Of a stretch of DNA of 55,008 nucleotides, positions 3,056 through 53,982 are shown in pieces. Each line of letters opens with the position of its first letter. Position 1 is the first letter of the stretch. Made by a program: the position numbers and the translations under genes. The stretch is from Burkholderiales bacterium (GTDB lineage Bacteria > Pseudomonadota > Gammaproteobacteria > Burkholderiales > JACQAP01), in NCBI GenBank assembly GCA_035644415.1, contig DASQOP010000280.1:1-55008 (forward strand). Reading direction: 5' to 3'. The notes below the pieces were generated by a model. The model did no database searches and was not told the origin of the DNA. It saw only the letters and a program-made list of their open reading frames with translations.

Positions 3056-3571
3056 ATGGAACGTAACTCTTTTTTGATTGTAGCCAAAGCGGTCCTGGCG
3101 GACAAGAGAATTTCCGCTACAGCCAAGTTACTTCTGGCGGTCCTCGCGGATCACTGGAACAAAAACACGGGGCAGTGTAATCCCCATGAAGCGACTCTGG
3201 CGGAGGAAATCGGCGTTTGCCGCCGCACCGTAATTCGCGCCTTGGCGGAGTTAAAGACGGCTGGGCTGATCCAGGTGCAACGGACCCAGCGGGGCAATCG
3301 GTACGAGTTCCCGAAGTGCCAAAATGTCACTTCCCAAGTGACAAATAGTCACTCTGCAGAGTGCCAAAATGTCACTTCGGAACCTCCGTATCCTTTATAT
3401 GAACCTTACTTAGGTGAACCTAGCGGCTTACGCGCGCAAAAACGGCGCGCTCCCGCCGCGTCTCCTCCTAATCCAAAACCTCTCCACGCCCCGCTGCCGC
3501 GCCGTAAATCGGTGCAGAGCGCAACGCTGGAAGCGTTCTACCGCGAAGAGCGAAGAAAGGCAGGAAGGTGA
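3056..3571 (+). CDS. winged-helix DNA-binding protein, replication-initiator-like
   Basis: AAGGAG 8 nt upstream of ATG; ..ATLAEEIGVCRRTVIRALAELKTAGLIQVQR.. wHTH typical for phage/plasmid initiator-type proteins; gene contains iterons (3315-3378). Confidence 0.65.
   Translation: MERNSFLIVAKAVLADKRISATAKLLLAVLADHWNKNTGQCNPHEATLAEEIGVCRRTVIRALAELKTAGLIQVQRTQRGNRYEFPKCQNVTSQVTNSHSAECQNVTSEPPYPLYEPYLGEPSGLRAQKRRAPAASPPNPKPLHAPLPRRKSVQSATLEAFYREERRKAGR
3315..3378. repeat. iteron cluster inside the wHTH gene (candidate origin)
   Basis: 19-nt direct repeat AGTGCCAAAATGTCACTTC at 3315-3333 and 3360-3378 (45-nt period), flanking the palindrome AGTGAC-aaata-GTCACT (3337-3353). Confidence 0.5.
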
Positions 3572-16864: not shown

Positions 16865-17114
16865 GGGCTATGGGCTATGGCCTATGGCCTATGGGTACGG
16901 GCGGCTGGGCGGCTGTGGGGCGGTACGGGCGGCTGGGCAGCCTTGGGAGCGGCTGGGCGGCTGAAATGGGGCGGCTGGGCGGCTGTAGGGGATACGAGGC
17001 GATTCTAGGGCAGCTAGCGGGCGGCTGTAGGGGATTGTACGGGGCGGTACGGGCGGCTGGGCGGCTGTAGAGCAAAAAAAAGCCGCCCCGTAGGGCGGCC
17101 CGGCTGGGCGGCTG
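16865..17114 (+). repeat. G-rich iteron field (7-nt phased GGSCTAT x4, then CGGCTGGGCGGCTG x5 plus degenerate copies)
   Basis: Perfect 14-mers at 16902, 16950, 16972, 17054 and 17101; GGTACGGGCGGCTGGGC three times; lies between convergent terminators. Confidence 0.8.
17074..17099 (-). terminator. rho-independent terminator of the - strand gene
   Basis: On the - strand: GCCGCCC-tacg-GGGCGGC followed by TTTTTTTT. Confidence 0.75.
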
Positions 17115-17116
17115 TT

Positions 17117-17638
17117 TTAGGCGAATTTGAATTCAAATCCCGCGCTACCGTAGGGCTTTGCTTCGATGTCATACGGCCTTGAGCCATCGAATCCCAATGT
17201 TTTGAATTGCTTGGTAGCGGAGATGTACGGCCTACCCGAAGCATCGCGCACATCCAGCGCGCCTTCTACCTCTTTCGCTTGAGGCACAATCCGTACCATT
17301 CGCCCTTCGATGGTAAGCGTAGCGAATTTGGGCTTTGGCGTACCTAGCCGCTCTGCTGCATCCTTCCCGAAGCATACGCGCCCTGTCTTGTTGAGATGAA
17401 TCGCAAATTCTGTAGGCTTGTCGGCCTTGGGAGCGGCGGGAGCGGCGGGAGCGGGCTTGGCAGCGGCAGCGGGCTTGACAGCAGCAGCGGGCTTGACAGC
17501 AGCAGCGGGCTTGGCAGCAGCAGCGGGCTTGACAGCAGCAGCGGGCTTGACAGCGGCAGCGGGCTTGGCAGCGCTTTTCAGGGCAGTAGCTAAGGCCTTG
17601 CCTACGGTAGCGGTAACATTCAAATTCTTTTTTGCCAT
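17117..17638 (-). CDS. DNA-binding protein: histone-H1/AlgP-like (KPAAAV)n repeat N-terminus plus AbrB/SpoVT-like C-terminal domain
   Basis: AAKPAAAVKPAAAVKPAAAAKPAAAV.. repeat; C-terminal ..TGRVCFGKDAAERLGTPKPKFATLTIEGRMVRIVP.. fits the swapped-hairpin AbrB pattern. Confidence 0.7.
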   Translation of the reverse strand: MAKKNLNVTATVGKALATALKSAAKPAAAVKPAAAVKPAAAAKPAAAVKPAAAVKPAAAAKPAPAAPAAPKADKPTEFAIHLNKTGRVCFGKDAAERLGTPKPKFATLTIEGRMVRIVPQAKEVEGALDVRDASGRPYISATKQFKTLGFDGSRPYDIEAKPYGSAGFEFKFA

Positions 17639-28088: not shown

Positions 28089-28110
28089 ACCCTTGGAGGT
28101 GATTCGACCG

Positions 28111-29202
28111 ATGGCAACCTTAACCGCTCCCGCGCCGCTGGCAGGAGGACCGATCTCCTGCCCGGCGAATATTCAGGAGACCAGAATCGCGTTCGGCTAC
28201 AAGCCGCAGACGGACGTGCCGACGATCAACGCGCTTGCCGACATGTGGGCGCTGACCAAGGTGAATCCGGCCCTGTCGGTGGTCAATCCGGTCAACGAAA
28301 CCAACGCGCTCGATATCGGCAAGGGTAACGAGTTCCCCAGCCAGACGTTCCCGTCGCATCAGGACACCAGCGTGGCTCTCGAAAAGTACGTCTCGAGTGA
28401 GTTCCTCGCCTGGCTGTTCTGTTTCACAACCGGCCAAGCCACCAAGACCGTGGCCGGAACCGGCTTCGCCTATGCGGCCGTGCCCAACGATCCCGCGGTT
28501 ACCTGCATCAATCTGCCGTGCTTCACCTGGGACGAGCAGATCCGGCCTTCCCCGAATTCGGTAGTAGACCGGGCGCTGATCGGCTGTGTGGTGGGCGACT
28601 GGGCGCTGACCATGTCCAGCGGGCCGGGGCGCGCCAACTGCCGGGTGGCCTGCACGCTTCCCGGGTCGGGGCGCGTGCAGAGTCCCGGCCTGTCGCCGCT
28701 GCCCGCGCTCACGCCGGAGCACTTCCTGAACGCCTCGGGTGCTTTCATTACCATCAACGGCATTGATTACGTGCTTCAGCAGACCTTCATGAGCCTGGAG
28801 TTTCGCTACAACAACAACGTGCGGCTCGACACCGGGCTATATCCCGGCTCGGGCACCCAAAACGGTTTCGGCGTGCGAGGCCGCATGGAATACGGCGTCC
28901 GCGAAATGAGTTTGAATTTCGTGGCCCGCGCGCAGAAAGGCAGCATAGAGTACAACAACTTGATCAATCAGGTGGAAGGGCCGGTGAGCTTCGGGGTGAA
29001 GGGGGCGCTAATCGACACCACCTTCTACCACAATTTCACGATCTCGATGCCGCGCACCATCATGCAGGCGGTGGTCAATGGCGACGACGCCAACATCGTC
29101 ACCGTGCAGTGCGGGGTCACGGCGCTGCAACCGACCGACGGGATCACGCCCATCATCACCATGAGCGCCACCACCACGAAGGACGGAATCCTGGGGCTAT
29201 GA
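28111..29202 (+). CDS. major tail (tube) protein (positional)
   Basis: GGAGGTGAT RBS 7 nt upstream of ATG 28111; large beta-rich protein preceding chaperone and tape measure. Confidence 0.55.
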   Translation: MATLTAPAPLAGGPISCPANIQETRIAFGYKPQTDVPTINALADMWALTKVNPALSVVNPVNETNALDIGKGNEFPSQTFPSHQDTSVALEKYVSSEFLAWLFCFTTGQATKTVAGTGFAYAAVPNDPAVTCINLPCFTWDEQIRPSPNSVVDRALIGCVVGDWALTMSSGPGRANCRVACTLPGSGRVQSPGLSPLPALTPEHFLNASGAFITINGIDYVLQQTFMSLEFRYNNNVRLDTGLYPGSGTQNGFGVRGRMEYGVREMSLNFVARAQKGSIEYNNLINQVEGPVSFGVKGALIDTTFYHNFTISMPRTIMQAVVNGDDANIVTVQCGVTALQPTDGITPIITMSATTTKDGILGL

Positions 29203-29204
29203 GG

Positions 29205-29795
29205 CTAGAAGGGAAATTCGTCCCAATGAAAGTCGAGGGTCACGTTCGCCGCCTCAAAGTAGTGCGCTTGAATGCGTACCCGCTTTGCAGTCTGCAATTG
29301 AGCGATCAATTCCGATTGCCCGGTCCAGGCCGCGTTGGTCTGGTCATCGAATCGGAGCATCGTGAAATTCTGGACCGGCCCTTCATCGAAGCGAACGCGC
29401 AAAGGGCACACTATGCCGTAGCTTTTCCAATCCCCAATGAACTGGCCACGCTCCAGATGCAGGGACAAGATAAAGAGGCCCGGTTTCTCTTCGCTCACTC
29501 GCAATGTGCCATGCTGCGGCCCGTTGTAAGGGAAAGGAAACTCGACAAGATTGGTAGACCGCAGCGTGGCGAACCGCTGTTCGGTCCCATCCAGATCGTC
29601 GCGGGCGCCCCCGTGTTTCCACTGCTCCGGTTCTGGCTGCGCAGCCTCTTGATCCGGTTCCTTGGCAGCGGGCAGAGGAGCGGCGGGAACAGGAACCATA
29701 GCCGCTCGGCCGGAGTTGTAGGCAGTTGGGCGCTCCAGCCGGAACCAGTAACCCGCGCCTGCGGCGATCAGGACAATAAATATGAATCTGTGCAT
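29205..29795 (-). CDS. membrane-anchored moron protein of unknown function
   Basis: Opposite strand inside the tail operon; starts MHRFIFIVLIAAGAGYWF (signal-anchor), then a Pro/Glu-rich linker and a beta-rich domain; TACAAT lies 9 nt upstream. Confidence 0.6.
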   Translation of the reverse strand: MHRFIFIVLIAAGAGYWFRLERPTAYNSGRAAMVPVPAAPLPAAKEPDQEAAQPEPEQWKHGGARDDLDGTEQRFATLRSTNLVEFPFPYNGPQHGTLRVSEEKPGLFILSLHLERGQFIGDWKSYGIVCPLRVRFDEGPVQNFTMLRFDDQTNAAWTGQSELIAQLQTAKRVRIQAHYFEAANVTLDFHWDEFPF

Positions 29796-29869: not shown

Positions 29870-29908
29870 AAAAATGGAAGGCGCGGTGGGTTATTTCTCG
29901 CGCCTTCC
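29870..29908 (-). terminator. intrinsic terminator on the - strand, directly after the array/palindrome
   Basis: GGAAGGCGCG-13 nt loop-CGCGCCTTCC followed by ATTTTT (read on the - strand). Confidence 0.6.
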
Positions 29909-29911
29909 TGT

Positions 29912-30013
29912 GTGCCATTGGCACCCTCGCCTTGCCGCACCGCGCCAAACCCAGCCATGGCTAGCCATGCCCAGCCGTGCCGAGCCTTGCCACGCCAGGC
30001 CCAGCCAAGCCCT
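29912..30013 (-). repeat. pentamer-phased G-rich array plus GTGCCAATGGCAC cap (copy A, inverted)
   Basis: On the - strand, 20 in-phase pentamers GGCTT GGCTG GGCCT GGCGT GGCAA ... GGCGA GGGTG CCAAT GGCAC. Confidence 0.85.
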
Positions 30014-30036
30014 AATGGACTTCACAATTATAGAGG

Positions 30037-30645
30037 ATGAAATCGATGTTTGATACCGCTGCAACCATTACCATCGGGCTGCGCGTGGCTGGCGCAGGGA
30101 AGACCGACATTACCGTGCGCTGGCCTTCCGACGAGGAATGGGCCATGCACCGCAAGCGCAGCAAGTTGATGATGCGCCAGATGGGCCGGGGCGCTTCGGA
30201 AATGGAGACCGACTCCAGCGCTGCCGACCAGAAGATGTATGAAGCCATCAAGCTCAACGGCGCGCCTCCCTTGACTGCGGGTGAAGCCACGACCATTATC
30301 CAGGCCATTGGCAAGTGCGACGTGCTGCGGGTGGATCTAGGTGCGGACGAGGCGGAGGCCGAGCTGCAAATCCTGACGGGCCGGGTGACGCACACCGTGC
30401 GCATCCCGACCCTCGACGAGGTGCGCAAGCTGCACCGTACGACGCGCTACCTAAACCTACCGTACAACTGCCAGGAGGTCCGCACCAGCATGGAAGCGGC
30501 GGCGGCGCTGTGGGATGCCTGCGGCGGGAAAGCGGACGGGTACGCCGGCGCGGTGCCGATTCTCCACAAGGATTCGGTGATCCGCCAGGTCATTATCGAA
30601 ATCGAGCGGGAAACAGCGGCGAGTTATGGCGAAGAAAATTTTTAG
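30037..30645 (+). CDS. tail assembly chaperone (gpG-like)
   Basis: Immediately upstream of the tape measure; ends in the slippery site A-AAT-TTT; alternative start ATG 30046 has better spacing to GAGGA. Confidence 0.65.
   Translation: MKSMFDTAATITIGLRVAGAGKTDITVRWPSDEEWAMHRKRSKLMMRQMGRGASEMETDSSAADQKMYEAIKLNGAPPLTAGEATTIIQAIGKCDVLRVDLGADEAEAELQILTGRVTHTVRIPTLDEVRKLHRTTRYLNLPYNCQEVRTSMEAAAALWDACGGKADGYAGAVPILHKDSVIRQVIIEIERETAASYGEENF
30636..30642 (+). promoter_or_regulatory. candidate -1 programmed frameshift site
   Basis: Heptamer A AAT TTT (X XXY YYZ) in the zero frame, one codon before the TAG stop. Confidence 0.5.
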
Positions 30646-31004
30646 CGGGCGGGGGTTGGCCGGCTCAACCTTCGCCGAGGTTTATCCTCCACCGAATGCT
30701 CCGCCGCGACCAACTGTGCCCCGGTTCTGGCGAATGCCCCGAGGCACTGATGCGCGATCCTTTCGCGGACGCCAACTCCCCGCCGTGCGACGAATGCCCG
30801 CTGGCGCTGCTGGACGAATATCTAGCGACCCCAGCAGGCCGGTTGATAGGCCTCACCATCGACCTGGATTTCGCAATGCAAGCGGGGGTGACCGTTAGCC
30901 TCCAAGACATCACCTACCCGGAGTTTTTGTTGCTCCGCTTCCTGAGCGAGGAGCGGAACCGCTTCCACGCGGAAGCGGCGGAGAGGGCGGCGCGTGGCCA
31001 GTAA
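30642..31004 (+). CDS. -1 frame extension of the chaperone (gpGT-like); could alternatively start independently at ATG 30696
   Basis: The -1 frame is open from the slippery site to 31004 and ends overlapping the tape-measure start; the C-terminal part is protein-like (..LLDEYLATPAGRLIGLTIDLDFAMQAGV..). Confidence 0.5.
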   Translation, partial: LAGGGWPAQPSPRFILHRMLRRDQLCPGSGECPEALMRDPFADANSPPCDECPLALLDEYLATPAGRLIGLTIDLDFAMQAGVTVSLQDITYPEFLLLRFLSEERNRFHAEAAERAARGQ

Positions 31005-34000
31005 CACGATTTACCTCCAAGTCGATTTCAACAGCGAGACCGCGCAGCAGAACGTCAACGCCCTCAATCAGTCGATTGCCACGACCGGCCCCACCGCAGA
31101 GAAAAGTTCCAAACAGGCCACCGCTGGCTTCCAGTCCATCGGCGTCTCGATTCAGAGCGTCAACCGGGAGTTCTCGCAGCTGACCTCTGCCCTGGCAGGA
31201 CTGGGGATCGCGCGCGTGATCGCCGGCATGGTGCAGATGTCTGCCGAGTTGAGCCGCACGCAGTTGGCTATGCAGTCGTTCACGGGGAGCGCGGCAGAGG
31301 CTAACAAGGTCTTCGAGCAGGTGCGCGCGATCGCGGCGACCAGCCCGTTCCGGTTCAAGGATCTGGAAGAGACGGCGCGCCAGTTGCTCGGCTTCGGCAT
31401 GGCCGCCAAAAACGTGCCCGACACGCTGCGCGTGATCACCGACCAGGTGGGCCGCATGGGCGGCTCGATTGAGAACGTCAACAACGTGGTGCGCCTCTTC
31501 GGTCGCATCATGGAAAAGGATTTCGTCGGAGCAATGGACCTGATGCGGGCGCTGCCGCAGCAGGGCGTGCAGGTGATGACCGCGCTGCGCGAGGCCATGT
31601 CGAAGCAGCTGGGCCGCGCCATCGACGTGGAGGGAGTTCGGGACGCGATTAAGGAAGGCATTCTGGACCCGCTGCAAACCATCCGCGTGGTGCTCGACTC
31701 CATGCGGAAGGCCGGCGGCTTCGGTGCTTCGCTGGCCGACGCCGCGCTGGCGTTCAAGAATATGGCCGACGCGGCTCAGAACGCGGTCAGCCAGCTGTTC
31801 GGGCCACAGGGCTTTGGACCGGCGCTTAGGAAGTTGGGCACTGAGATCGGCAACCTGCTGGCGCCGCTCGGCGGTCTGCTCGACTATCTGATGAAACTGC
31901 CGGATCCCACGAAGCTGGTGATCCTCCAAGTCTTGGCTGGGGCGGCGGCGGTCGCGGCCCTTGGCACTGCGCTCGCCATTGTCACTAGTCTAGCCAGCCC
32001 GCTGCTCAGTCTCACCGCGGCGATTTTCAAGTTCACGGTGGGACTGGCGACCATGAACCCGCAACTGGCCATTACGGTGGTGTTGCTCGGCACGTTGGCC
32101 TTTGCCGCCTATAAGCTGATCCCGCAATTCCAAGGGATGGTGGATACCCTGGTCGGCGGGGTGGCCGGCAAGATTAAAACGGCCCTGACCGGCCTGGCGG
32201 AACAGGGCAAGAAGTTCATGGCCGGGATTTTCAAGGGCGGGGGCCAGATCGAACCGGGCGATATCCTCGACACCGCCAAGCTGTTCGAGAAACTCCGTCT
32301 GGAGGAACAGAAACACGCTGATGCGGCGCAGCGCAGTTTACTCGAAGCGCTGGCCTCGCCGGTCGAGGCGGTGCGCCTGAAATACGCGACCCTCTTCAGC
32401 GAACTGGAGGAAAAGATCAAACTCCTTCCGCAGGCCCAGCAGCAGGCACTGCGCGCCATCCTGGTCGGTGCCGAAGTGACCGAGACGGCGGGGGCGAAAT
32501 TCAAGGAGCAGAAAAAGCAGGAGGACGAATTCACCCGCTATCAGGTGGAGCGCGCCAAGGGAGCGGCCGACGCGCAGGTGGCCTACATCGAGGCGCAGGA
32601 CGCTCAGGATCTGCGCAGCAAGGTGCGCAACATCGACCGCATCACCCAGATCCGCATGGACGCCGCGAAGCAGGTTGCGGACATCGAAAACAACAACCTG
32701 GAGGATCAATTCCACCGCTTCGAGAAGATGGCCAACGACTACCGCAAGCAGTTCGCCGCAGCGGGCGTGGACGTGGACAAGATGATCGAGGCCCACCGCA
32801 AAGAAACCGACGATAAGGAAGCGGCGGTGACCAGGAAGCAATTCGACGAGGGGCAGAAATACCGGCTGGAAGGGTGGAAGAAGGCTAACGATCTGATCAT
32901 CGAAGACCAGAAGCGGGTGTACGACGCCTTCAAGGATCAGTTCAGCCAACTGTTCGACGTGTTCACCGATAAGACCAAGAGCCTCGGTCAGGCACTGGGG
33001 GACTTCTTCAAAAAACTGGTGCTGGGCGAGGCCAAGGAGCTATTCGCCAGCCAACTGGCAGGGGTGGCCACCGCAGCGGCAGGTTATGGGCAGCCGCAGG
33101 AAAGCTTGGGCAGGGGTGGGCAGGGGATCCTGGGAACCCTGCTGCGTCGCGGGATGCCGCCGCGGCCACCCCTGCCGCCGCCAGACGTGCAGCAGATCAA
33201 CGCGACGCAGAGCGACATCTCGTTCCCGGTAGCCAGCGCGTTTCAGAACAGCACGCACAGCTACGAGATCGCTACCAACGCCTACTCCGACGCCACCATC
33301 CGTTTCGCGGAGGCGGTCAACAACTTCGCCGGCGCCACCGTGCAGCATGAGGGCAGCGCCGACCGCATGGCGGATACCACCACCACCATGAAGGAGGCCT
33401 TTCAGACAGCCAGCGGGGCCACCGGCGTGCCGCAGACTCTCTTGCGGGCCGTGGCGCAAGCCGAGTCCAGTATGAGACCGGGGGCCGTCTCGTCCGCAGG
33501 CGCAATGGGCCTCATGCAGTTGATGCCCGGGACGGCCCGCGAACACGGCGTGACCGACGTGTTCAATGTCGGGCAAAACGTGATGGGCGGCGCACAACAC
33601 CTGCAGGAGATGCTCACCCGCTACCACGGCAATGTGCCGCTGGCGCTGGCGGCTTACAACATGGGCGCGCACGCTTTAGACCAACGGTTGGCTTCCGGTC
33701 GTGCGCTGCCCGCGGAGACTAAGGCCTACGTCGCCCGCATCACGCAGCTGATGGCAGCGGCACCCGAAGCGGCTGGTGGCGGTGGCGCCGATCTCCTTCC
33801 TGGCGGTGAGGACGCCCGCTATCTCGCGGCCACTGGCGGCGGGGGCGCTCCCGCGGTTACGATGGCTCAACTGGCAGCGTTGCCGCAGCGCGCCCAGCCA
33901 CTGTTTCTGCCAGGTGTGCCCAGCTTTCAGGCGGAAGGCGCGGGAGCCGTCACCGGGCCCAGCGTGGCGGAACTGGCCAACCTGCCGATGGGTCTCACGG

Positions 34001-35154
34001 CACTGCAAAGGTTGAGTCCGTCCCTCTTGCCCCTGCTAACCGGCGCGTTGAAGGCGGGAGGAGCCACCACGGGCGCGGGCGGAGTGAATCTGGCGGGTCT
34101 GAACATACAGAATCTCTCGAAGCTCGGGCAGTTCTTCGGCATCTACGGCAAGGGAGTCACGTCGGCCGGCAGCATCCTGACCTCCCCGGCAGCGGGCACG
34201 CTGGCGCTAATGGCAGGCATGGGACTGGCCAGCAAAGGGTTGCAGCAGCACTACGCACCCGCGACGGTGGCGGGCGGCGCGCTGGCGGGCGCGGGGATGT
34301 TTCTGACCAATCCGAGTATGATCGCGCGCGCCAGTGAGATGCCCGGCGGGGTCGGCCTTGGCATCGGCGCGGCGGCGGCGACCGGCGCAGGCCTGGGGTT
34401 GTTCGCCAGCGGGTTCCAGCGCGGCGGCGGCACTGGCCTCGCAATGGATATCGGCGGCGGCGCACTGGCGGGCGCGGGCATCGGCACCATGATCCTGCCC
34501 GGACTCGGCACCGCCATCGGCGCGGCTATCGGAGCCGGGGTGGGCGCGATCACAGGCATTGTGCGCCTGTTCGTGCATACCGAGCAAGAGCGGATCCGCA
34601 CCGGCATCAAGCAGGTCTACGGCATCGACATCTCCAACCGCCAGATCCTCACCCAGATCCAGCAGATCGTGGATCAGAAGTACGGCGGCAGCGTGACGAT
34701 CGGTATCCGGTCCCAGGACGTGCAAGACATCGTGCGGCTGTATGCCCTCTCGACCGGGCAAGCGGCGAACCTGCCGCGGCCCATGTATGCCGCCACCATC
34801 GCGCAGTCGCAGGCGGGAGGCCTCGCCACCCAGCCGGTCTATCAGGGCGGCGTGCTGGTGCAGAATCCCTACACCGGCCCGACCACCTACCAATACCAGA
34901 CCGCCGTCACCGCCGCGCAGGGGCTGATGGCGGGCACCAGCCAGGGCGTGCCGGGAGCCGGCGGGCAGGTGAGCAGTATTTTCATGCAGCTGAATCCGCA
35001 GCAGGCCAACGATCTATTCACGGGCCGGGTGGTACAGGCGGTGCAGCAGAACCCCGCGGCGGTTGCTTCCGCCAACGCTTCCGCCACCCGGGCGGGAGAC
35101 AGCCGGGTGTCGCAAGCCTCGAACATGTTGGAGCCGTTGACGAGTTTAAGTTGA
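30994..35154 (+). CDS. tape measure protein with an internal SLT lytic transglycosylase domain
   Basis: 1386 aa, helical N-terminal half, Gly/Ala-rich hydrophobic C-terminal segments; ..AQAESSMRPGAVSSAGAMGLMQLMPGTAREHGV..AAYNMG.. (about 33430-33690) is an SLT catalytic motif. Confidence 0.9.
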   Translation: MASNTIYLQVDFNSETAQQNVNALNQSIATTGPTAEKSSKQATAGFQSIGVSIQSVNREFSQLTSALAGLGIARVIAGMVQMSAELSRTQLAMQSFTGSAAEANKVFEQVRAIAATSPFRFKDLEETARQLLGFGMAAKNVPDTLRVITDQVGRMGGSIENVNNVVRLFGRIMEKDFVGAMDLMRALPQQGVQVMTALREAMSKQLGRAIDVEGVRDAIKEGILDPLQTIRVVLDSMRKAGGFGASLADAALAFKNMADAAQNAVSQLFGPQGFGPALRKLGTEIGNLLAPLGGLLDYLMKLPDPTKLVILQVLAGAAAVAALGTALAIVTSLASPLLSLTAAIFKFTVGLATMNPQLAITVVLLGTLAFAAYKLIPQFQGMVDTLVGGVAGKIKTALTGLAEQGKKFMAGIFKGGGQIEPGDILDTAKLFEKLRLEEQKHADAAQRSLLEALASPVEAVRLKYATLFSELEEKIKLLPQAQQQALRAILVGAEVTETAGAKFKEQKKQEDEFTRYQVERAKGAADAQVAYIEAQDAQDLRSKVRNIDRITQIRMDAAKQVADIENNNLEDQFHRFEKMANDYRKQFAAAGVDVDKMIEAHRKETDDKEAAVTRKQFDEGQKYRLEGWKKANDLIIEDQKRVYDAFKDQFSQLFDVFTDKTKSLGQALGDFFKKLVLGEAKELFASQLAGVATAAAGYGQPQESLGRGGQGILGTLLRRGMPPRPPLPPPDVQQINATQSDISFPVASAFQNSTHSYEIATNAYSDATIRFAEAVNNFAGATVQHEGSADRMADTTTTMKEAFQTASGATGVPQTLLRAVAQAESSMRPGAVSSAGAMGLMQLMPGTAREHGVTDVFNVGQNVMGGAQHLQEMLTRYHGNVPLALAAYNMGAHALDQRLASGRALPAETKAYVARITQLMAAAPEAAGGGGADLLPGGEDARYLAATGGGGAPAVTMAQLAALPQRAQPLFLPGVPSFQAEGAGAVTGPSVAELANLPMGLTALQRLSPSLLPLLTGALKAGGATTGAGGVNLAGLNIQNLSKLGQFFGIYGKGVTSAGSILTSPAAGTLALMAGMGLASKGLQQHYAPATVAGGALAGAGMFLTNPSMIARASEMPGGVGLGIGAAAATGAGLGLFASGFQRGGGTGLAMDIGGGALAGAGIGTMILPGLGTAIGAAIGAGVGAITGIVRLFVHTEQERIRTGIKQVYGIDISNRQILTQIQQIVDQKYGGSVTIGIRSQDVQDIVRLYALSTGQAANLPRPMYAATIAQSQAGGLATQPVYQGGVLVQNPYTGPTTYQYQTAVTAAQGLMAGTSQGVPGAGGQVSSIFMQLNPQQANDLFTGRVVQAVQQNPAAVASANASATRAGDSRVSQASNMLEPLTSLS

Positions 35155-52003: not shown

Positions 52004-52093
52004 AACCGCGATGGCGATGACACCAGCGCGGCGAGGTCAGGCGGAGGCAGGGCTCGGCAGGGTTTTTTGAAAAGAAGGTTTTTAATTTGCCGG

Positions 52094-52183
52094 GGCAGGG
52101 TGTGGCACGGCTGGGCACGGCACGGCCGGGCAGGGCAGGGCAGGGCAGGGCAGGGTACGGCGAGGCGAGGGTGCCAATGGCAC
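52094..52183 (+). repeat. pentamer-phased G-rich array plus GTGCCAATGGCAC cap (copy B)
   Basis: 18 in-phase pentamers including (GGCAG)x5; palindrome at 52171-52183; a shorter array remnant lies at 52030-52063. Confidence 0.9.
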
Positions 52184-52214: not shown

Positions 52215-52883
52215 ATGAGAACCATTGAAGTGGAACTTACCAGCGAAATGCCGCTCTTAATGCACGCGGATAACATCGACTGGGCAGACAAGATGGAAGA
52301 CTGGAAGAACGATCCCAAGAACAAGAGTAAGTCAAAGCCAGGAGACGATAGAACTCCCGCCTGGAGGTGGCTCGGGTGCCTAAACTACGATGATCCGAAG
52401 ACCGGCGTCGTGACCGTTCCATCCGAATACATCATGCGGTGCCTCATGGGAGGCGCAGCGGAAGTACCGACCGGCAAGGGCCGGAAGACCTTTAAGGAAC
52501 TGAGCCAGAGCGGCATTCTATGCGAAAAATTTCACTGGCCTTTGCTAATCAATGGGGAAAAGAAGCCGGTGCGAATGGAGGATATCAATCAATTATTGAA
52601 GGTCCCCCGTTTCCCGGACCAGGTCGAGGGCGCTAAGGCGCTGGGCTTCTCTCTCTTTGTCAAACGCGCAAGAGTCGGCAATAACAAACATATCCGAGTC
52701 CGGCCGCGTTTTGACGATTGGAGTACGAGAGGTGAACTGATGATCATCGACGATCAGATCACCAATGATGTGGTCGCTAGTATTCTCGACATCTCGGGAA
52801 GGTTGAAGGGTCTTGGAGATTGGAGGCCGAGCGCTAAGACTCCGGGACCGTTCGGGACGTTCAAGGCGAAGATTGTGAGTTAA
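52215..52883 (+). CDS. accessory (cargo) protein of unknown function
   Basis: 222-aa ORF, visibly lower GC than its surroundings, 31 nt downstream of the palindrome. Confidence 0.7.
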   Translation: MRTIEVELTSEMPLLMHADNIDWADKMEDWKNDPKNKSKSKPGDDRTPAWRWLGCLNYDDPKTGVVTVPSEYIMRCLMGGAAEVPTGKGRKTFKELSQSGILCEKFHWPLLINGEKKPVRMEDINQLLKVPRFPDQVEGAKALGFSLFVKRARVGNNKHIRVRPRFDDWSTRGELMIIDDQITNDVVASILDISGRLKGLGDWRPSAKTPGPFGTFKAKIVS

Positions 52884-52978
52884 GGCATGGCTCGGCGCGG
52901 TAGGGTCGGGCTGGGCCTGGCCTGGCAAGGCCGGGCGCGGTGCGGCATGGTTGGGCAGGGCGAGGGTGCCAATGGCAC
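52884..52978 (+). repeat. pentamer-phased G-rich array plus cap (copy C)
   Basis: 19 in-phase pentamers starting the base after the stop codon; palindrome at 52966-52978. Confidence 0.9.
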
Positions 52979-52996: not shown

Positions 52997-53491
52997 ATGA
53001 GTCATGGATTTCGCGGCGGCATTCCCTACGCGGTTGACGTGAACCGCCTGAAGGATGCTTTCCCGGTGCCGATGCTCGCCGAAGGGCGAGTCATTGAACA
53101 TGCCGACTTAGAAGAAATCGTGAAGGCGAAGAGGGGCGGGCAGCGCTACTACGGAGTCATCAACTCCTGGATCAATAGCATGAAAAACACCAACGGAATT
53201 TTCATGACCTGGGAGACGTCGGTGGGCGTAAAGGTTCTGGGCCCGGCGGAAATTCTAGCTCACGCTGAGATCAGGACCCGGCAGAAGATCAAGCAGACCG
53301 GCAATGCGGTGAAGACCTTCGTATGGGTCGACCGAACGAGATTGGACAGCACGGGGCAGCAGCGTTTGGATCACCAGGAGCGCGTCGCCAACGCGATCAG
53401 GGATGCGCTGAACACTGCCAGAAAAGATTTGGCGATAGACCTGGCGCCGGTAAAGTCTCTGCCAAAACCGAAAATGATTCGGGAGGCCTGA
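52997..53491 (+). CDS. accessory (cargo) protein of unknown function
   Basis: AGGAGG RBS; ATG 18 nt after the palindrome; 164 aa, lower GC. Confidence 0.7.
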   Translation: MSHGFRGGIPYAVDVNRLKDAFPVPMLAEGRVIEHADLEEIVKAKRGGQRYYGVINSWINSMKNTNGIFMTWETSVGVKVLGPAEILAHAEIRTRQKIKQTGNAVKTFVWVDRTRLDSTGQQRLDHQERVANAIRDALNTARKDLAIDLAPVKSLPKPKMIREA

Positions 53492-53498
53492 AGAAGTT

Positions 53499-53599
53499 TG
53501 GTCCGGTCGGGCTCGGCAAGGCCCGGTGGGGCTAGGCGTGGCGGGGTGCGGCTAGGCAAGGTTGGGTATGGTACGGCGAGGCAAGGGTGCCAATGGCAC
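53499..53599 (+). repeat. pentamer-phased G-rich array plus cap (copy D)
   Basis: 20 in-phase pentamers; palindrome at 53587-53599. Confidence 0.9.
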
Positions 53600-53615: not shown

Positions 53616-53701
53616 GGTACGGCGAGGCGAGGCCTGGCAGGGTGTGGGCATGGTGTGGCGAGGCGAGGCGAGGTATGGCAGGGCGAGGGTGCCAATGGCA
53701 C
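53616..53701 (+). repeat. pentamer-phased G-rich array plus cap (copy E)
   Basis: 6 + 11 pentamers with a single 1-nt phase slip; palindrome at 53689-53701. Confidence 0.9.
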
Positions 53702-53726
53702 ATGAGAATTCATTTCGTAAGGTTTG

Positions 53727-53873
53727 CGGCGAGGGCAGGGCAAGGTCGGGTCAGGCTCGGCTCGGTCAGGCAGGCCAAGGCTGGGTCAGGTCAGGTGGGG
53801 TGGGGCATGGTCGGGCTCGGTCAGGCAAGGCCGGGCAGGGCAGGGTACGGCGAGGCGAGGGTGCCAATGGCAC
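53727..53873 (+). repeat. pentamer-phased G-rich array plus cap (copy F)
   Basis: 28 pentamers in one phase; palindrome at 53861-53873; a 6-7 unit remnant lies at 53906-53940. Confidence 0.9.
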
Positions 53874-53982
53874 GAACGGGATGTTTGCAAGTTCCGGCAA
53901 TGCGCGGCTGGGCTGGGCGCGGCGAGGCACGGCAGGCCAGGAGGAACCAGCGGGTTTCCAATGGGAAATGTCAAAATGAGCC

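What the first reader, a model, noticed from the sequence alone, without database searches (positions are those of the whole stretch)
29870..30036. The inverted array copy inside the tail operon looks like a self-contained ~150-nt antisense ncRNA gene
On the - strand the order is: TATAAT (30032-30027), 20 in-phase pentamers (30013-29925), the palindrome (29924-29912), a 10-bp GC hairpin GGAAGGCGCG/CGCGCCTTCC (29908-29876), then ATTTTT (29875-29870). That gives a -10 box, a body and an intrinsic terminator, antisense to the late operon between the tube gene/moron and the chaperone gene. I found no convincing -35. On the + strand the same stretch gives the late mRNA a ~90-nt C-rich, G-poor (rut-like) segment just before the chaperone RBS, so it could also modulate late-operon read-through.
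Basis: partly seen in the sequence, partly recalled or inferred. Interest (0 to 1): 0.65.

Follow-up and report, generated by a model that had tools for sequence, protein, structure and literature searches.

The report
Detached VIPR guide RNA gene
The element is a stand-alone gene for a VIPR guide RNA (vrRNA), a recently described phage RNA-guided DNA-silencing system, and its code points at the start of the tape-measure gene of sibling phages, not at its own tail operon.

Summary

It is not an antisense regulator. It is one of seven copies of one element. The other six flank a gene at 52215-52883 that is a full-length homolog of the phiSUSP1 Vipr protein and has a Cas7-like fold. This matches the VIPR system in bioRxiv 10.64898/2026.04.26.720920 and .720927, where vrRNAs of 9-16 GGY/NN repeats plus a 3' tail guide a Vipr filament to DNA.

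Decoded by the published 1-nt-skip rule, the 16 guide dinucleotides match codons 1-16 of the tape-measure gene in related IMG/VR phages. The best match is 29/32, with skip bases at wobble positions. Twelve distinct contigs reach 80% or more. Controls reach at most 24/32. The phage's own tape-measure start matches only 23/32.

Best reading: a detached, self-transcribed vrRNA used against sibling phages. What is new is the placement: 22 kb from vipr, inverted in the tail operon, about 1 kb from its own resistant allele. Expression, binding and repression were not tested.

The parts
30027..30032 (-). -10-like TATAAT. Predicted transcription start is near 30020, 8-10 nt before the first repeat unit. 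No -35 was found.
   Evidence: One of only 3 TATAAT in 110 kb of both strands. On the + strand it overlaps the chaperone RBS region.
29932..30011 (-). Guide region of the vrRNA: 16 GGY-NN units with NN = TT TG CT GT AA TC AC TG AT TA AT TG TT GC GC AA.
   Evidence: register. (1-nt-skip match to the tape-measure start of sibling phages, 29/32).
29912..29931 (-). Conserved 3' tail: unit GGCGA, then GG, then the hairpin GUGCC-AAU-GGCAC (29924-29912).
   Evidence: The hairpin and preceding GG are identical in the five main-locus copies, and the preceding unit is GGCGA in four of them and GGCAA in one. The stem covaries in relatives: 4 of 5 pairs show double changes.
29870..29908 (-). Intrinsic-terminator-like hairpin: 10-bp GC stem, 13-nt loop, then A+T5. 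It lies between the vrRNA and the moron ORF.
   Evidence: -19.8 kcal/mol, z = -6.3. Not called by the consensus scan because the loop exceeds 8 nt.
29205..29795 (-). Moron ORF (196 aa, N-terminal hydrophobic segment, no family hit). It lies downstream of the vrRNA in the same inverted cassette.
   Evidence: Most relatives have only 2-76 nt between tube and chaperone (the largest group, 17 loci, has at most 27), or other 420-540-nt morons.
52215..52883 (+). vipr gene: Cas7-like RAMP protein, the predicted protein partner of the vrRNA.
   Evidence: phiSUSP1 Vipr gene, full length, E 7e-9. (pairwise E 1e-18). (AF2 pLDDT 88.9; top PDB fold matches are Csm3, Cas7-11 and type VII Cas7). (H17, R163, D202-W203-R204 conserved).
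52997..53491 (+). Probable vipr-accessory gene (vap), 164 aa.
   Evidence: A protein of about 162-172 aa follows vipr in several relatives. Similarity to SUSP1 vap1 is weak (E 0.002 pairwise).
52094..52183 (+). vrRNA 1 (15 units plus tail), upstream of vipr.
52884..52978 (+). vrRNA 2 (16 units plus tail), between vipr and vap.
53500..53599 (+). vrRNA 3 (17 units plus tail).
53616..53701 (+). vrRNA 4 (6 + 8 units with a 1-nt register slip, plus tail).
53734..53873 (+). vrRNA 5 (25 units plus tail).
53896..53975 (+). Short array (8 units) with a variant hairpin UUUCC-AAU-GGGAA.
30994..31041 (+). The phage's own tape-measure codons 1-16, the homolog of the predicted target. It matches the guide at only 23/32 and so is predicted not to be targeted.

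Best explanation
The element is a detached, self-transcribed vrRNA gene of the phage's VIPR system.

Inferred steps:
1. Transcription starts at its own -10 box near 30020 and ends at the hairpin/T-run at 29870.
2. That gives a primary RNA of about 150 nt, or about 100-110 nt if it is trimmed after the tail hairpin.

Steps taken from the SUSP1 work, not shown here:
3. One Vipr protomer (gene at 52215-52883) binds each GGY-NN unit, hides the GGY and presents the NN dinucleotides.
4. The filament reads double-stranded DNA with one skipped base per unit.
5. It blocks transcription at the bound site.

Shown here by computation: the 16 NN dinucleotides match the first 16 codons of the tape-measure gene of closely related phages, pairing with the sense strand, with the skip base at the wobble position.

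Predicted outcome: a sibling phage in the same cell cannot express its tape-measure and downstream tail genes. The phage's own diverged tape-measure start escapes.
For: Element identity:
- 17 in-phase units, 16 of them perfect GGY-NN, with the same GG + GUGCCAAUGGCAC tail as the five vrRNAs around the vipr gene and different NN.
- The tail stem covaries in relatives.

Protein partner:
- The window protein is a full-length homolog of the phiSUSP1 Vipr gene (E 7e-9, E 1e-18).
- That SUSP1 gene is flanked by GGTNN arrays.
- The AF2 model (pLDDT 88.9) matches Csm3, Cas7-11 and type VII Cas7.
- The published GGY-contact residues are conserved: H17, a thumb arginine and the G-loop DWR.

Family association:
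- An IMG/VR scan for 10 perfect GGCNN units returned more than 120 contigs.
- 66 of 122 array-bearing loci (120 from this scan, 2 from the tail-specific scan) encode a Vipr-family protein. In those 66, 230 arrays lie on the gene's strand and none on the opposite strand.

Published description and mechanism: bioRxiv 10.64898/2026.04.26.720920 and 10.64898/2026.04.26.720927.

Target:
- 15 loci, from 12 distinct contigs, reach 80% or more, all at the tape-measure start, with skip equal to wobble.
- Skip 0, 2 and 4 give at most 21/32. Two hundred shuffles of unit order give at most 24/32.
- These loci were fetched by tube-protein similarity, independently of the guide.
- The best self-match is 23/32, below the paper's 80% cut-off.

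Transcription signals.
Against: - No expression data exist. Only a -10 box was found, with no -35.
- The terminator loop is unusually long at 13 nt.
- The element is 22 kb from vipr and on the opposite strand. All 230 arrays seen near vipr genes elsewhere are co-oriented with the gene and adjacent to it.
- None of 31 tube-gene relatives carries an array at this position.
- 17 units is one more than the published range of 9-16.
- The skip rule and transcriptional repression were shown only for the SUSP1 and P. fulva clades, which share 26% protein identity with this one.
- The tail here is a simple hairpin, not the SUSP1 pseudoknot.
Confidence: 0.85

Rival explanations
1. First reader's model. 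The RNA, or its C-rich complement in the late mRNA, regulates the phage's own tail operon by antisense pairing, transcriptional interference or Rho loading.
For: - The element is antisense to the late operon, between the tube and chaperone genes.
- The + strand segment is 48% C and lies in an 835-nt untranslated stretch.
- A - strand promoter facing the late operon could cause polymerase collisions.
Against: - Six paralogs lie in sense orientation elsewhere in the window, and hundreds in other phages flank vipr genes.
- The conserved parts are GGY and the tail hairpin, not sequence complementary to a regulatory site.
- The + strand is not G-poor (24% G).
- The NN code has a highly significant external target.
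Confidence: 0.05
2. Self-regulation. The vrRNA-Vipr complex binds the phage's own tape-measure start (72% NN match) to delay or silence tail genes, for example in lysogeny.
For: The best 1-nt-skip match anywhere in the window is the phage's own tape-measure start, 23/32, about 980 nt from the vrRNA gene.
Against: - Homology to the true sibling target explains that match.
- It is below the 80% cut-off, and the published work found no self-targets.
- Disrupting NN pairing abolished silencing in the published assays.
- The own site carries 9 mismatches, including three fully mismatched units.
Confidence: 0.05
3. The array plus hairpin is a 5' leader or attenuator of the moron gene, or a decayed and non-functional copy left by a rearrangement.
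For: - It lies immediately upstream of the moron ORF on the same strand, with a terminator between them.
- It is absent from 31 relatives.
Against: - 16 of 17 units are perfect GGY, and the tail is identical to the functional-looking copies.
- A 29/32 target match is not expected of a decaying copy.
- The moron homolog in L154 has no array.
Confidence: 0.05

Closest known systems
VIPR vrRNAs of Escherichia phage SUSP1 and the Pseudomonas fulva prophage (bioRxiv 10.64898/2026.04.26.720920 and 10.64898/2026.04.26.720927)
   Same: - GGY/NN pentamer tract followed by a conserved structured 3' tail.
- Homologous Vipr RAMP protein in the same genome.
- NN code matches a coding-sequence target under the 1-nt-skip rule, with the skip at the wobble position.
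- The target belongs to a competing phage.
- No self-target at 80% or more.
   Different: - 22 kb from vipr, on the opposite strand, inside the tail operon, with its own -10 box and terminator.
- 17 units rather than 9-16.
- The tail is a 5-bp, 3-nt-loop hairpin instead of a pseudoknot.
- The host is probably an Acidobacteriota bacterium.
- The target is a structural gene start (tape measure) rather than lysis-lysogeny regulators or a satellite.
- Nothing here was tested experimentally.
Class 1 CRISPR crRNA with a Cas7 backbone (Csm3/Cmr4, Cas7-11, type VII)
   Same: - RAMP-fold protomers polymerise along a guide RNA, and a thumb breaks pairing periodically.
- The closest solved folds to the window protein are these proteins.
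   Different: - 5-nt guide period with only 2 reading bases per unit, against 6-nt with 5 reading bases.
- No CRISPR repeats, no cas1/cas2 and no other cas genes in the window.
- No Pfam RAMP hit.
Virus-borne mini-CRISPR arrays and solitary repeat units (Racr RNAs, PMC10651486)
   Same: Small phage-encoded guide-like RNAs, detached from effector genes, used in conflicts between mobile elements. That mini-arrays target close relatives of the virus carrying them is from my own knowledge, not tested here.
   Different: Those depend on host CRISPR-Cas proteins or inhibit them. This RNA has its own phage-encoded effector and a non-contiguous code.
Phage morons (autonomous promoter-gene-terminator cassettes in late operons; established phage genetics, from my own knowledge)
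   Same: An inverted cassette between the tube and chaperone genes with its own -10 box and terminator. The same junction holds other 420-540-nt inserts in relatives.
   Different: The first product of this cassette is a guide RNA rather than a protein.

Membership tests
VIPR vrRNA | Tandem YNNGG (GGY/NN) pentamers: at least 4 for detection, typically 9-16. | tested here: met
   17 in-phase units at 30011-29927, 16 of them perfect GGY. No array of 8 or more units in 50 shuffles. One unit above the published range.
VIPR vrRNA | GGY conserved while NN is hypervariable between copies. | tested here: met
   The seven window copies and copies in relatives share GGY but differ in NN.
VIPR vrRNA | An invariable, structured 3' tail follows the repeat tract. 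| tested here: met
   GG + GUGCCAAUGGCAC is identical to five main-locus copies; the unit before it is GGCGA in four of them and GGCAA in one. In 33 tails from relatives, 4 of 5 stem pairs show compensatory changes. Caveat: rows were selected for pairing of at least 4 of 5, so the percentage paired is circular.
VIPR vrRNA | A cognate vipr (RAMP) gene in the same genome. | tested here: met
   Gene at 52215-52883: homolog of SUSP1 Vipr, Cas7-like fold, H17 / thumb R / G-loop DWR conserved.
VIPR vrRNA | Lies in the intergenic DNA flanking vipr, co-oriented with it. This is typical architecture and not clearly defining, since the paper says satellites carry their own vrRNAs. | tested here: not met
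   22 kb away on the opposite strand. All 230 arrays in 66 other Vipr loci are co-oriented and adjacent.
VIPR vrRNA | The NN string matches a natural DNA target at 80% or more under the 1-nt-skip rule, gapless, with the skip at codon wobble. | tested here: met
   29/32 (91%) at the tape-measure start in L139 and L146. 12 distinct contigs reach 80% or more. Other skip values give at most 21/32, and shuffles at most 24/32.
VIPR vrRNA | No self-target at 80% or more in the source contig. | tested here: met
   The best self-match is 23/32 = 72%, at the own tape-measure start.
VIPR vrRNA | Expressed as an RNA of about 100 nt that co-purifies with Vipr and represses targets. | not testable with these tools
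   Only a -10 box and a terminator hairpin are predicted.
VIPR system (locus) | A vipr-accessory (vap) gene next to vipr. | tested here: inconclusive
   A 164-aa ORF at 52997-53491 is conserved in position among relatives. Similarity to SUSP1 vap1 is weak, with no Pfam or PHROG hit.
CRISPR-Cas (Class 1) | CRISPR repeat-spacer array and cas genes. RAMP detectable by Pfam models. | tested here: not met
   No Pfam hit for the RAMP-fold protein. Repeats have a 5-nt period and there is no repeat-spacer array. No Rfam hit.
Intrinsic terminator | GC-rich stem, short loop, then a U-run. | tested here: inconclusive
   10-bp GC stem, -19.8 kcal/mol, z = -6.3, followed by A+U5. The loop is 13 nt, so the consensus scan rejects it.
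Sigma-70 promoter | -35 and -10 hexamers 16-18 bp apart. | tested here: inconclusive
   A perfect -10 TATAAT at 30032-30027, but no -35 by the scan.

The most novel reading that the evidence does not exclude
Detached vrRNA genes are placed deliberately next to the phage's own resistant allele of the gene they attack. Guide (weapon) and diverged target (immunity) are then inherited together when sibling phages recombine.

Two independent cases fit this:
- The window orphan lies about 980 nt from its own tape-measure start. That start matches at 23/32, against 29/32 in siblings, and carries 5 amino-acid changes (plus a GTG start) in an otherwise nearly invariant MAANNIYIQVDFNSQ.
- L134 carries a different inverted orphan about 190 nt from its own copy of its target. 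Its first 11 units match 17/22 there, against 22/22 in sibling L133.

The proximity could instead reflect how new guides are made. Neither point is described in the two VIPR preprints as far as I read them.
Probability: 0.3. Interest if true: 0.8.

Novelty: new member of a known kind. Interest (0 to 1): 0.6.

Why it matters
VIPR was described only in 2026 preprints, with experiments limited to E. coli and Pseudomonas elements. This case extends it in several ways:
- It applies the published decoding rule to a distant clade (26% Vipr identity, probably an Acidobacteriota soil phage) and recovers a highly significant natural target.
- It shows a vrRNA can be a free-standing moron-like gene, far from vipr and inside a late operon.
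- It identifies a structural-gene start, the tape measure, of sibling phages as a target.
- It suggests a testable linkage between guide and resistant allele.

It also gives a concrete guide and target pair for biochemical tests, with the phage's own site as the mismatch control.

Tried and rejected
- Early ideas dropped once the fold and the literature were in: a TRAP-like RNA-binding leader (5-nt period), an N4-type hairpin promoter (5-bp stem, 3-nt loop), and G-quadruplex or R-loop DNA.
- Rfam at gathering thresholds: no hit in the window.
- Megablast of 27-33 kb against GenBank phages: no match.
- Pfam: no hit for Vipr, vap or the moron.
- Literature search for 'GGCNN': irrelevant results only.
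- Exact sub-pattern scans for the orphan's target in IMG/VR, metagenome and genome collections: only chance hits. L125 gave 27/34 in an AT-rich contig, and L177 gave 28/34 in a TA-repeat region with no ORF. The scans failed because the true target has three mismatches that leave a longest perfect run of 7 units. The target appeared only when I scored relatives fetched by tube protein with mismatches allowed.
vr2 at 24/30 is borderline.
- Consensus promoter scan of the vipr locus: nothing.
- tRNA search after the T-arm-like tails in L013 and L017: none.

Full report
**The observation**

Reading both strands confirms the layout on the - strand:
- TATAAT at 30032-30027.
- In-phase pentamers from 30011 to 29927.
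- GG, then the palindrome GTGCCAATGGCAC at 29924-29912.
- The stem GGAAGGCGCG / CGCGCCTTCC at 29908-29876, followed by ATTTTT at 29875-29870.

My register gives 17 units, not 20: GGCTT GGCTG GGCCT GGCGT GGCAA GGCTC GGCAC GGCTG GGCAT GGCTA GCCAT GGCTG GGTTT GGCGC GGTGC GGCAA GGCGA. No array of 8 or more units appears in 50 shuffles of the window. TATAAT occurs only three times in the window on both strands. The hairpin before the T-run folds at -19.8 kcal/mol, z = -6.3. Its 13-nt loop keeps it out of the consensus terminator scan, and no -35 is found. The + strand complement is 48% C but 24% G, so it is C-rich but not G-poor.

**It is one member of a repeat family in the window**

The palindrome occurs five more times, at 52171, 52966, 53587, 53689 and 53861. 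All five are on the + strand, and each follows a GGY-NN array. A sixth short array at 53896 ends in a variant hairpin. These copies flank two genes, 52215-52883 and 52997-53491, just upstream of a serine integrase. The copies share GGY and the tail but differ in the NN dinucleotides.

The copy in the finding lies upstream of a - strand ORF at 29795-29205 (196 aa, hydrophobic N-terminus, no family hit). Together they form an inverted cassette between the tail tube gene (28093-29202, PF18906) and the chaperone gene.

**The family is widespread and tied to one protein**

Arrays are mostly 9-16 units long.
- An HMM of the 52215-52883 protein family finds a homolog in 66 of the 122 array-bearing loci (the 120 above plus 2 from the tail-specific scan). 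That family has 1362 homologs at E < 1e-5, one of them labelled an Acidobacteriota MAG.
- In those 66 loci, all 230 arrays lie on the gene's strand and none on the other, usually within 100 nt of the gene.

**What the protein is**

- An AlphaFold2 model (pLDDT 88.9) matches Cas7-family RAMPs in the PDB: Csm3, Cas7-11/gRAMP and type VII Cas7. Foldseek gives E of about 2e-4, probability 1.0 and TM 0.41-0.47. Pfam finds nothing.
- tblastn against GenBank phages finds a full-length match (26% identity, E 7e-9) to a hypothetical protein of Escherichia phage phiSUSP1 (pairwise E 1e-18).
- That SUSP1 gene is flanked by GGTNN arrays: one upstream, and at least two downstream of the next gene.

**The literature**

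A full-text search led to bioRxiv 10.64898/2026.04.26.720920 and its companion 10.64898/2026.04.26.720927. These describe VIPR systems:
- A phage-encoded ancestral RAMP (Vipr) works with vrRNAs of 9-16 GGY/NN repeats followed by an invariable structured tail.
- The vrRNAs are about 100 nt long, flank vipr and co-purify with the protein.
- One protomer binds each repeat and hides the GGY.
- The NN dinucleotides read double-stranded DNA with one skipped base per unit, usually the codon wobble base.
- Recognition works on either strand and needs no PAM.
- The outcome is transcriptional repression of competing phages, satellites or prophages.

The published GGY-contact residues H17, thumb R138 and G-loop D177-W178-R179 align with H17, R163 and D202-W203-R204 of the window protein. 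These positions are invariant or nearly invariant in its family.

**The tail**

Loci encoding close Vipr relatives (60-75% identity) were fetched through the encoding-contig index. They carry the same architecture. The hairpin keeps a CCAAUGG-like core while its outer pairs change in a compensatory way, for example GUGCC/GGCAC, GCACC/GGUGC, GCGCC/GGCGC, ACGCC/GGCGU, AAGCC/GGCUU and GGGCC/GGCCC. On 33 tails, four of five pairs show double changes. I picked rows that already paired at four or more positions, so the 100% pairing figure is circular. The diversity of pair types is not. The orphan's tail is identical to the main-locus tails, so the same Vipr should recognise it.

**The target**

I decoded the orphan's 16 guide units by the published rule as nTTnTGnCTnGTnAAnTCnACnTGnATnTAnATnTGnTTnGCnGCnAA.

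Thirty-one IMG/VR relatives had been fetched by tube-protein similarity, independently of the guide. In these, the pattern matches the antisense strand of the first 16 codons of the gene after the chaperone:
- 29/32 in L139 (ATG GCC GCT AAC AAC ATT TAC ATC CAG GTC GAC TTC AAC AGC CAG AAC) and in L146.
- 28/32 in L128.
- 26/32 or more in 15 loci, which come from 12 distinct contigs.
- Every skip base falls on a codon third position.

The window homolog of that gene (30994-35154) matches tape-measure PHROGs and carries a transglycosylase domain.

Controls:
- Skip lengths 0, 2 and 4 give at most 21/32.
- Two hundred shuffles of unit order give at most 24/32, and that only once.
- Reversed unit order gives 22/32.

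The phage's own tape-measure start matches only 23/32 (72%). Its peptide VASNTIYLQVDFNSET departs at five positions, plus a GTG start, from the near-invariant MAANNIYIQVDFNSQ of its relatives. There is no other self-match.

**Placement**

None of the 31 relatives has an array between the tube and chaperone genes. The gap there is 2-76 nt without an insert (17 loci have at most 27 nt), or 420-540 nt with other inserts. L154 carries a homolog of the window's moron but no array. So the cassette is an insertion at a moron hot spot.

One relative, L134, carries a different inverted array in another intergenic gap of the structural module. It has a TAAAAT upstream and a different tail hairpin. Its first 11 units match 22/22 to codons LSVKYAIIKQK of the neighbouring gene's homolog in L133, again with skip equal to wobble. 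L134's own copy matches 17/22 and lies about 190 nt away.

**Interpretation**

Computation supports the following:
- Identity as a vrRNA.
- Presence of the cognate Vipr.
- The target match.
- The lack of self-targeting.

Inferred from sequence signals only: autonomous transcription from the -10 box to the terminator.

Inferred from the SUSP1 and P. fulva experiments: RNP assembly, DNA binding and a transcriptional roadblock.

The antisense or rut-like role is not supported.

**Limits**

- Exact-pattern scans of the big collections could not find the target, because the true target carries mismatches.
- The main-locus vrRNAs have no identified target in the DNA I could hold.
- The window is a metagenomic contig (ENA ERZ27253147, 55,012 bp), so the host and the lysogenic state are unknown.

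Noticed in passing
L134 1002-1071 (-); own copy of target at L134 1261-1302; target at L133 1159-1191 (+): A related phage carries a different inverted orphan array in its structural module, with a different tail hairpin and TAAAAT upstream. Its first 11 units match 22/22 (1-nt skip, skip = wobble) to the sibling allele of the adjacent gene. Its own allele, about 190 nt away, matches 17/22.
   Followed up: partly
window 53734-53873 (+), 53616-53701 (+), 53896-53975 (+): Irregular main-locus vrRNAs. One has 25 units, well above the published 9-16, and may be two fused or staggered guides. One has a 1-nt register slip (GGTGTG) splitting it into 6 + 8 units. One short array ends in a variant hairpin UUUCC-AAU-GGGAA.
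   Followed up: no
window 52030-52075 (+): A degenerate GGY-like stretch (GGCGA GGTCA GGCGG AGGCA GGGCT CGGCA GGG) followed by TTTTTTG lies just upstream of vrRNA 1. It may be a decayed array or part of a promoter or terminator region.
   Followed up: no
window 30033-30048 (+): The chaperone probably starts at ATG 30046, not 30037. GAGG at 30033-30036 is correctly spaced only for 30046, and relatives align from residue 3-4. The - strand TATAAT overlaps this RBS region, which marks the edge of the inserted cassette.
   Followed up: partly
L006 6301-7000 (+): An IMG/VR contig carries one uninterrupted run of about 140 GGY-NN units (700 nt), far longer than any described vrRNA.
   Followed up: no
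L013 (- strand arrays) and L017 5408-5467 (+): Some arrays are followed by tails with tRNA-like T-arm sequences (GGTTCGACTCC). ARAGORN calls no tRNA there, so this may be another tail type.
   Followed up: partly
spacers between vrRNAs: window 52060-52093, 53700-53733; L157, L160, L164: A recurrent G/A-GTTT-(N)4-8 motif (for example AGGTTTTTAATTT, AAGTTTGATAAC, AGGTTTAGACGC) lies 0-12 nt before the first unit of many vrRNAs in this clade. It could be a promoter element or a processing signal. The orphan lacks it and has TATAAT instead.
   Followed up: no
window 3308-3378 (+): Three tandem copies of a 22-23-bp unit (TTCCCAAGTGCCAAAATGTCAC), iteron- or operator-like, in the early region.
   Followed up: no
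window 16865-17067 and 17429-17573: Dense G-rich tandem repeats with periods of 7-9, 18, 28 and 54 nt (for example AGCGGGCTTGACAGCAGC x6.8). They are not pentameric and are unrelated to the vrRNAs by period.
   Followed up: no
window 34749-34841 (-): ARAGORN reports an odd tRNA-??? with a 4-base anticodon inside the tape-measure gene. It is probably a false positive.
   Followed up: no
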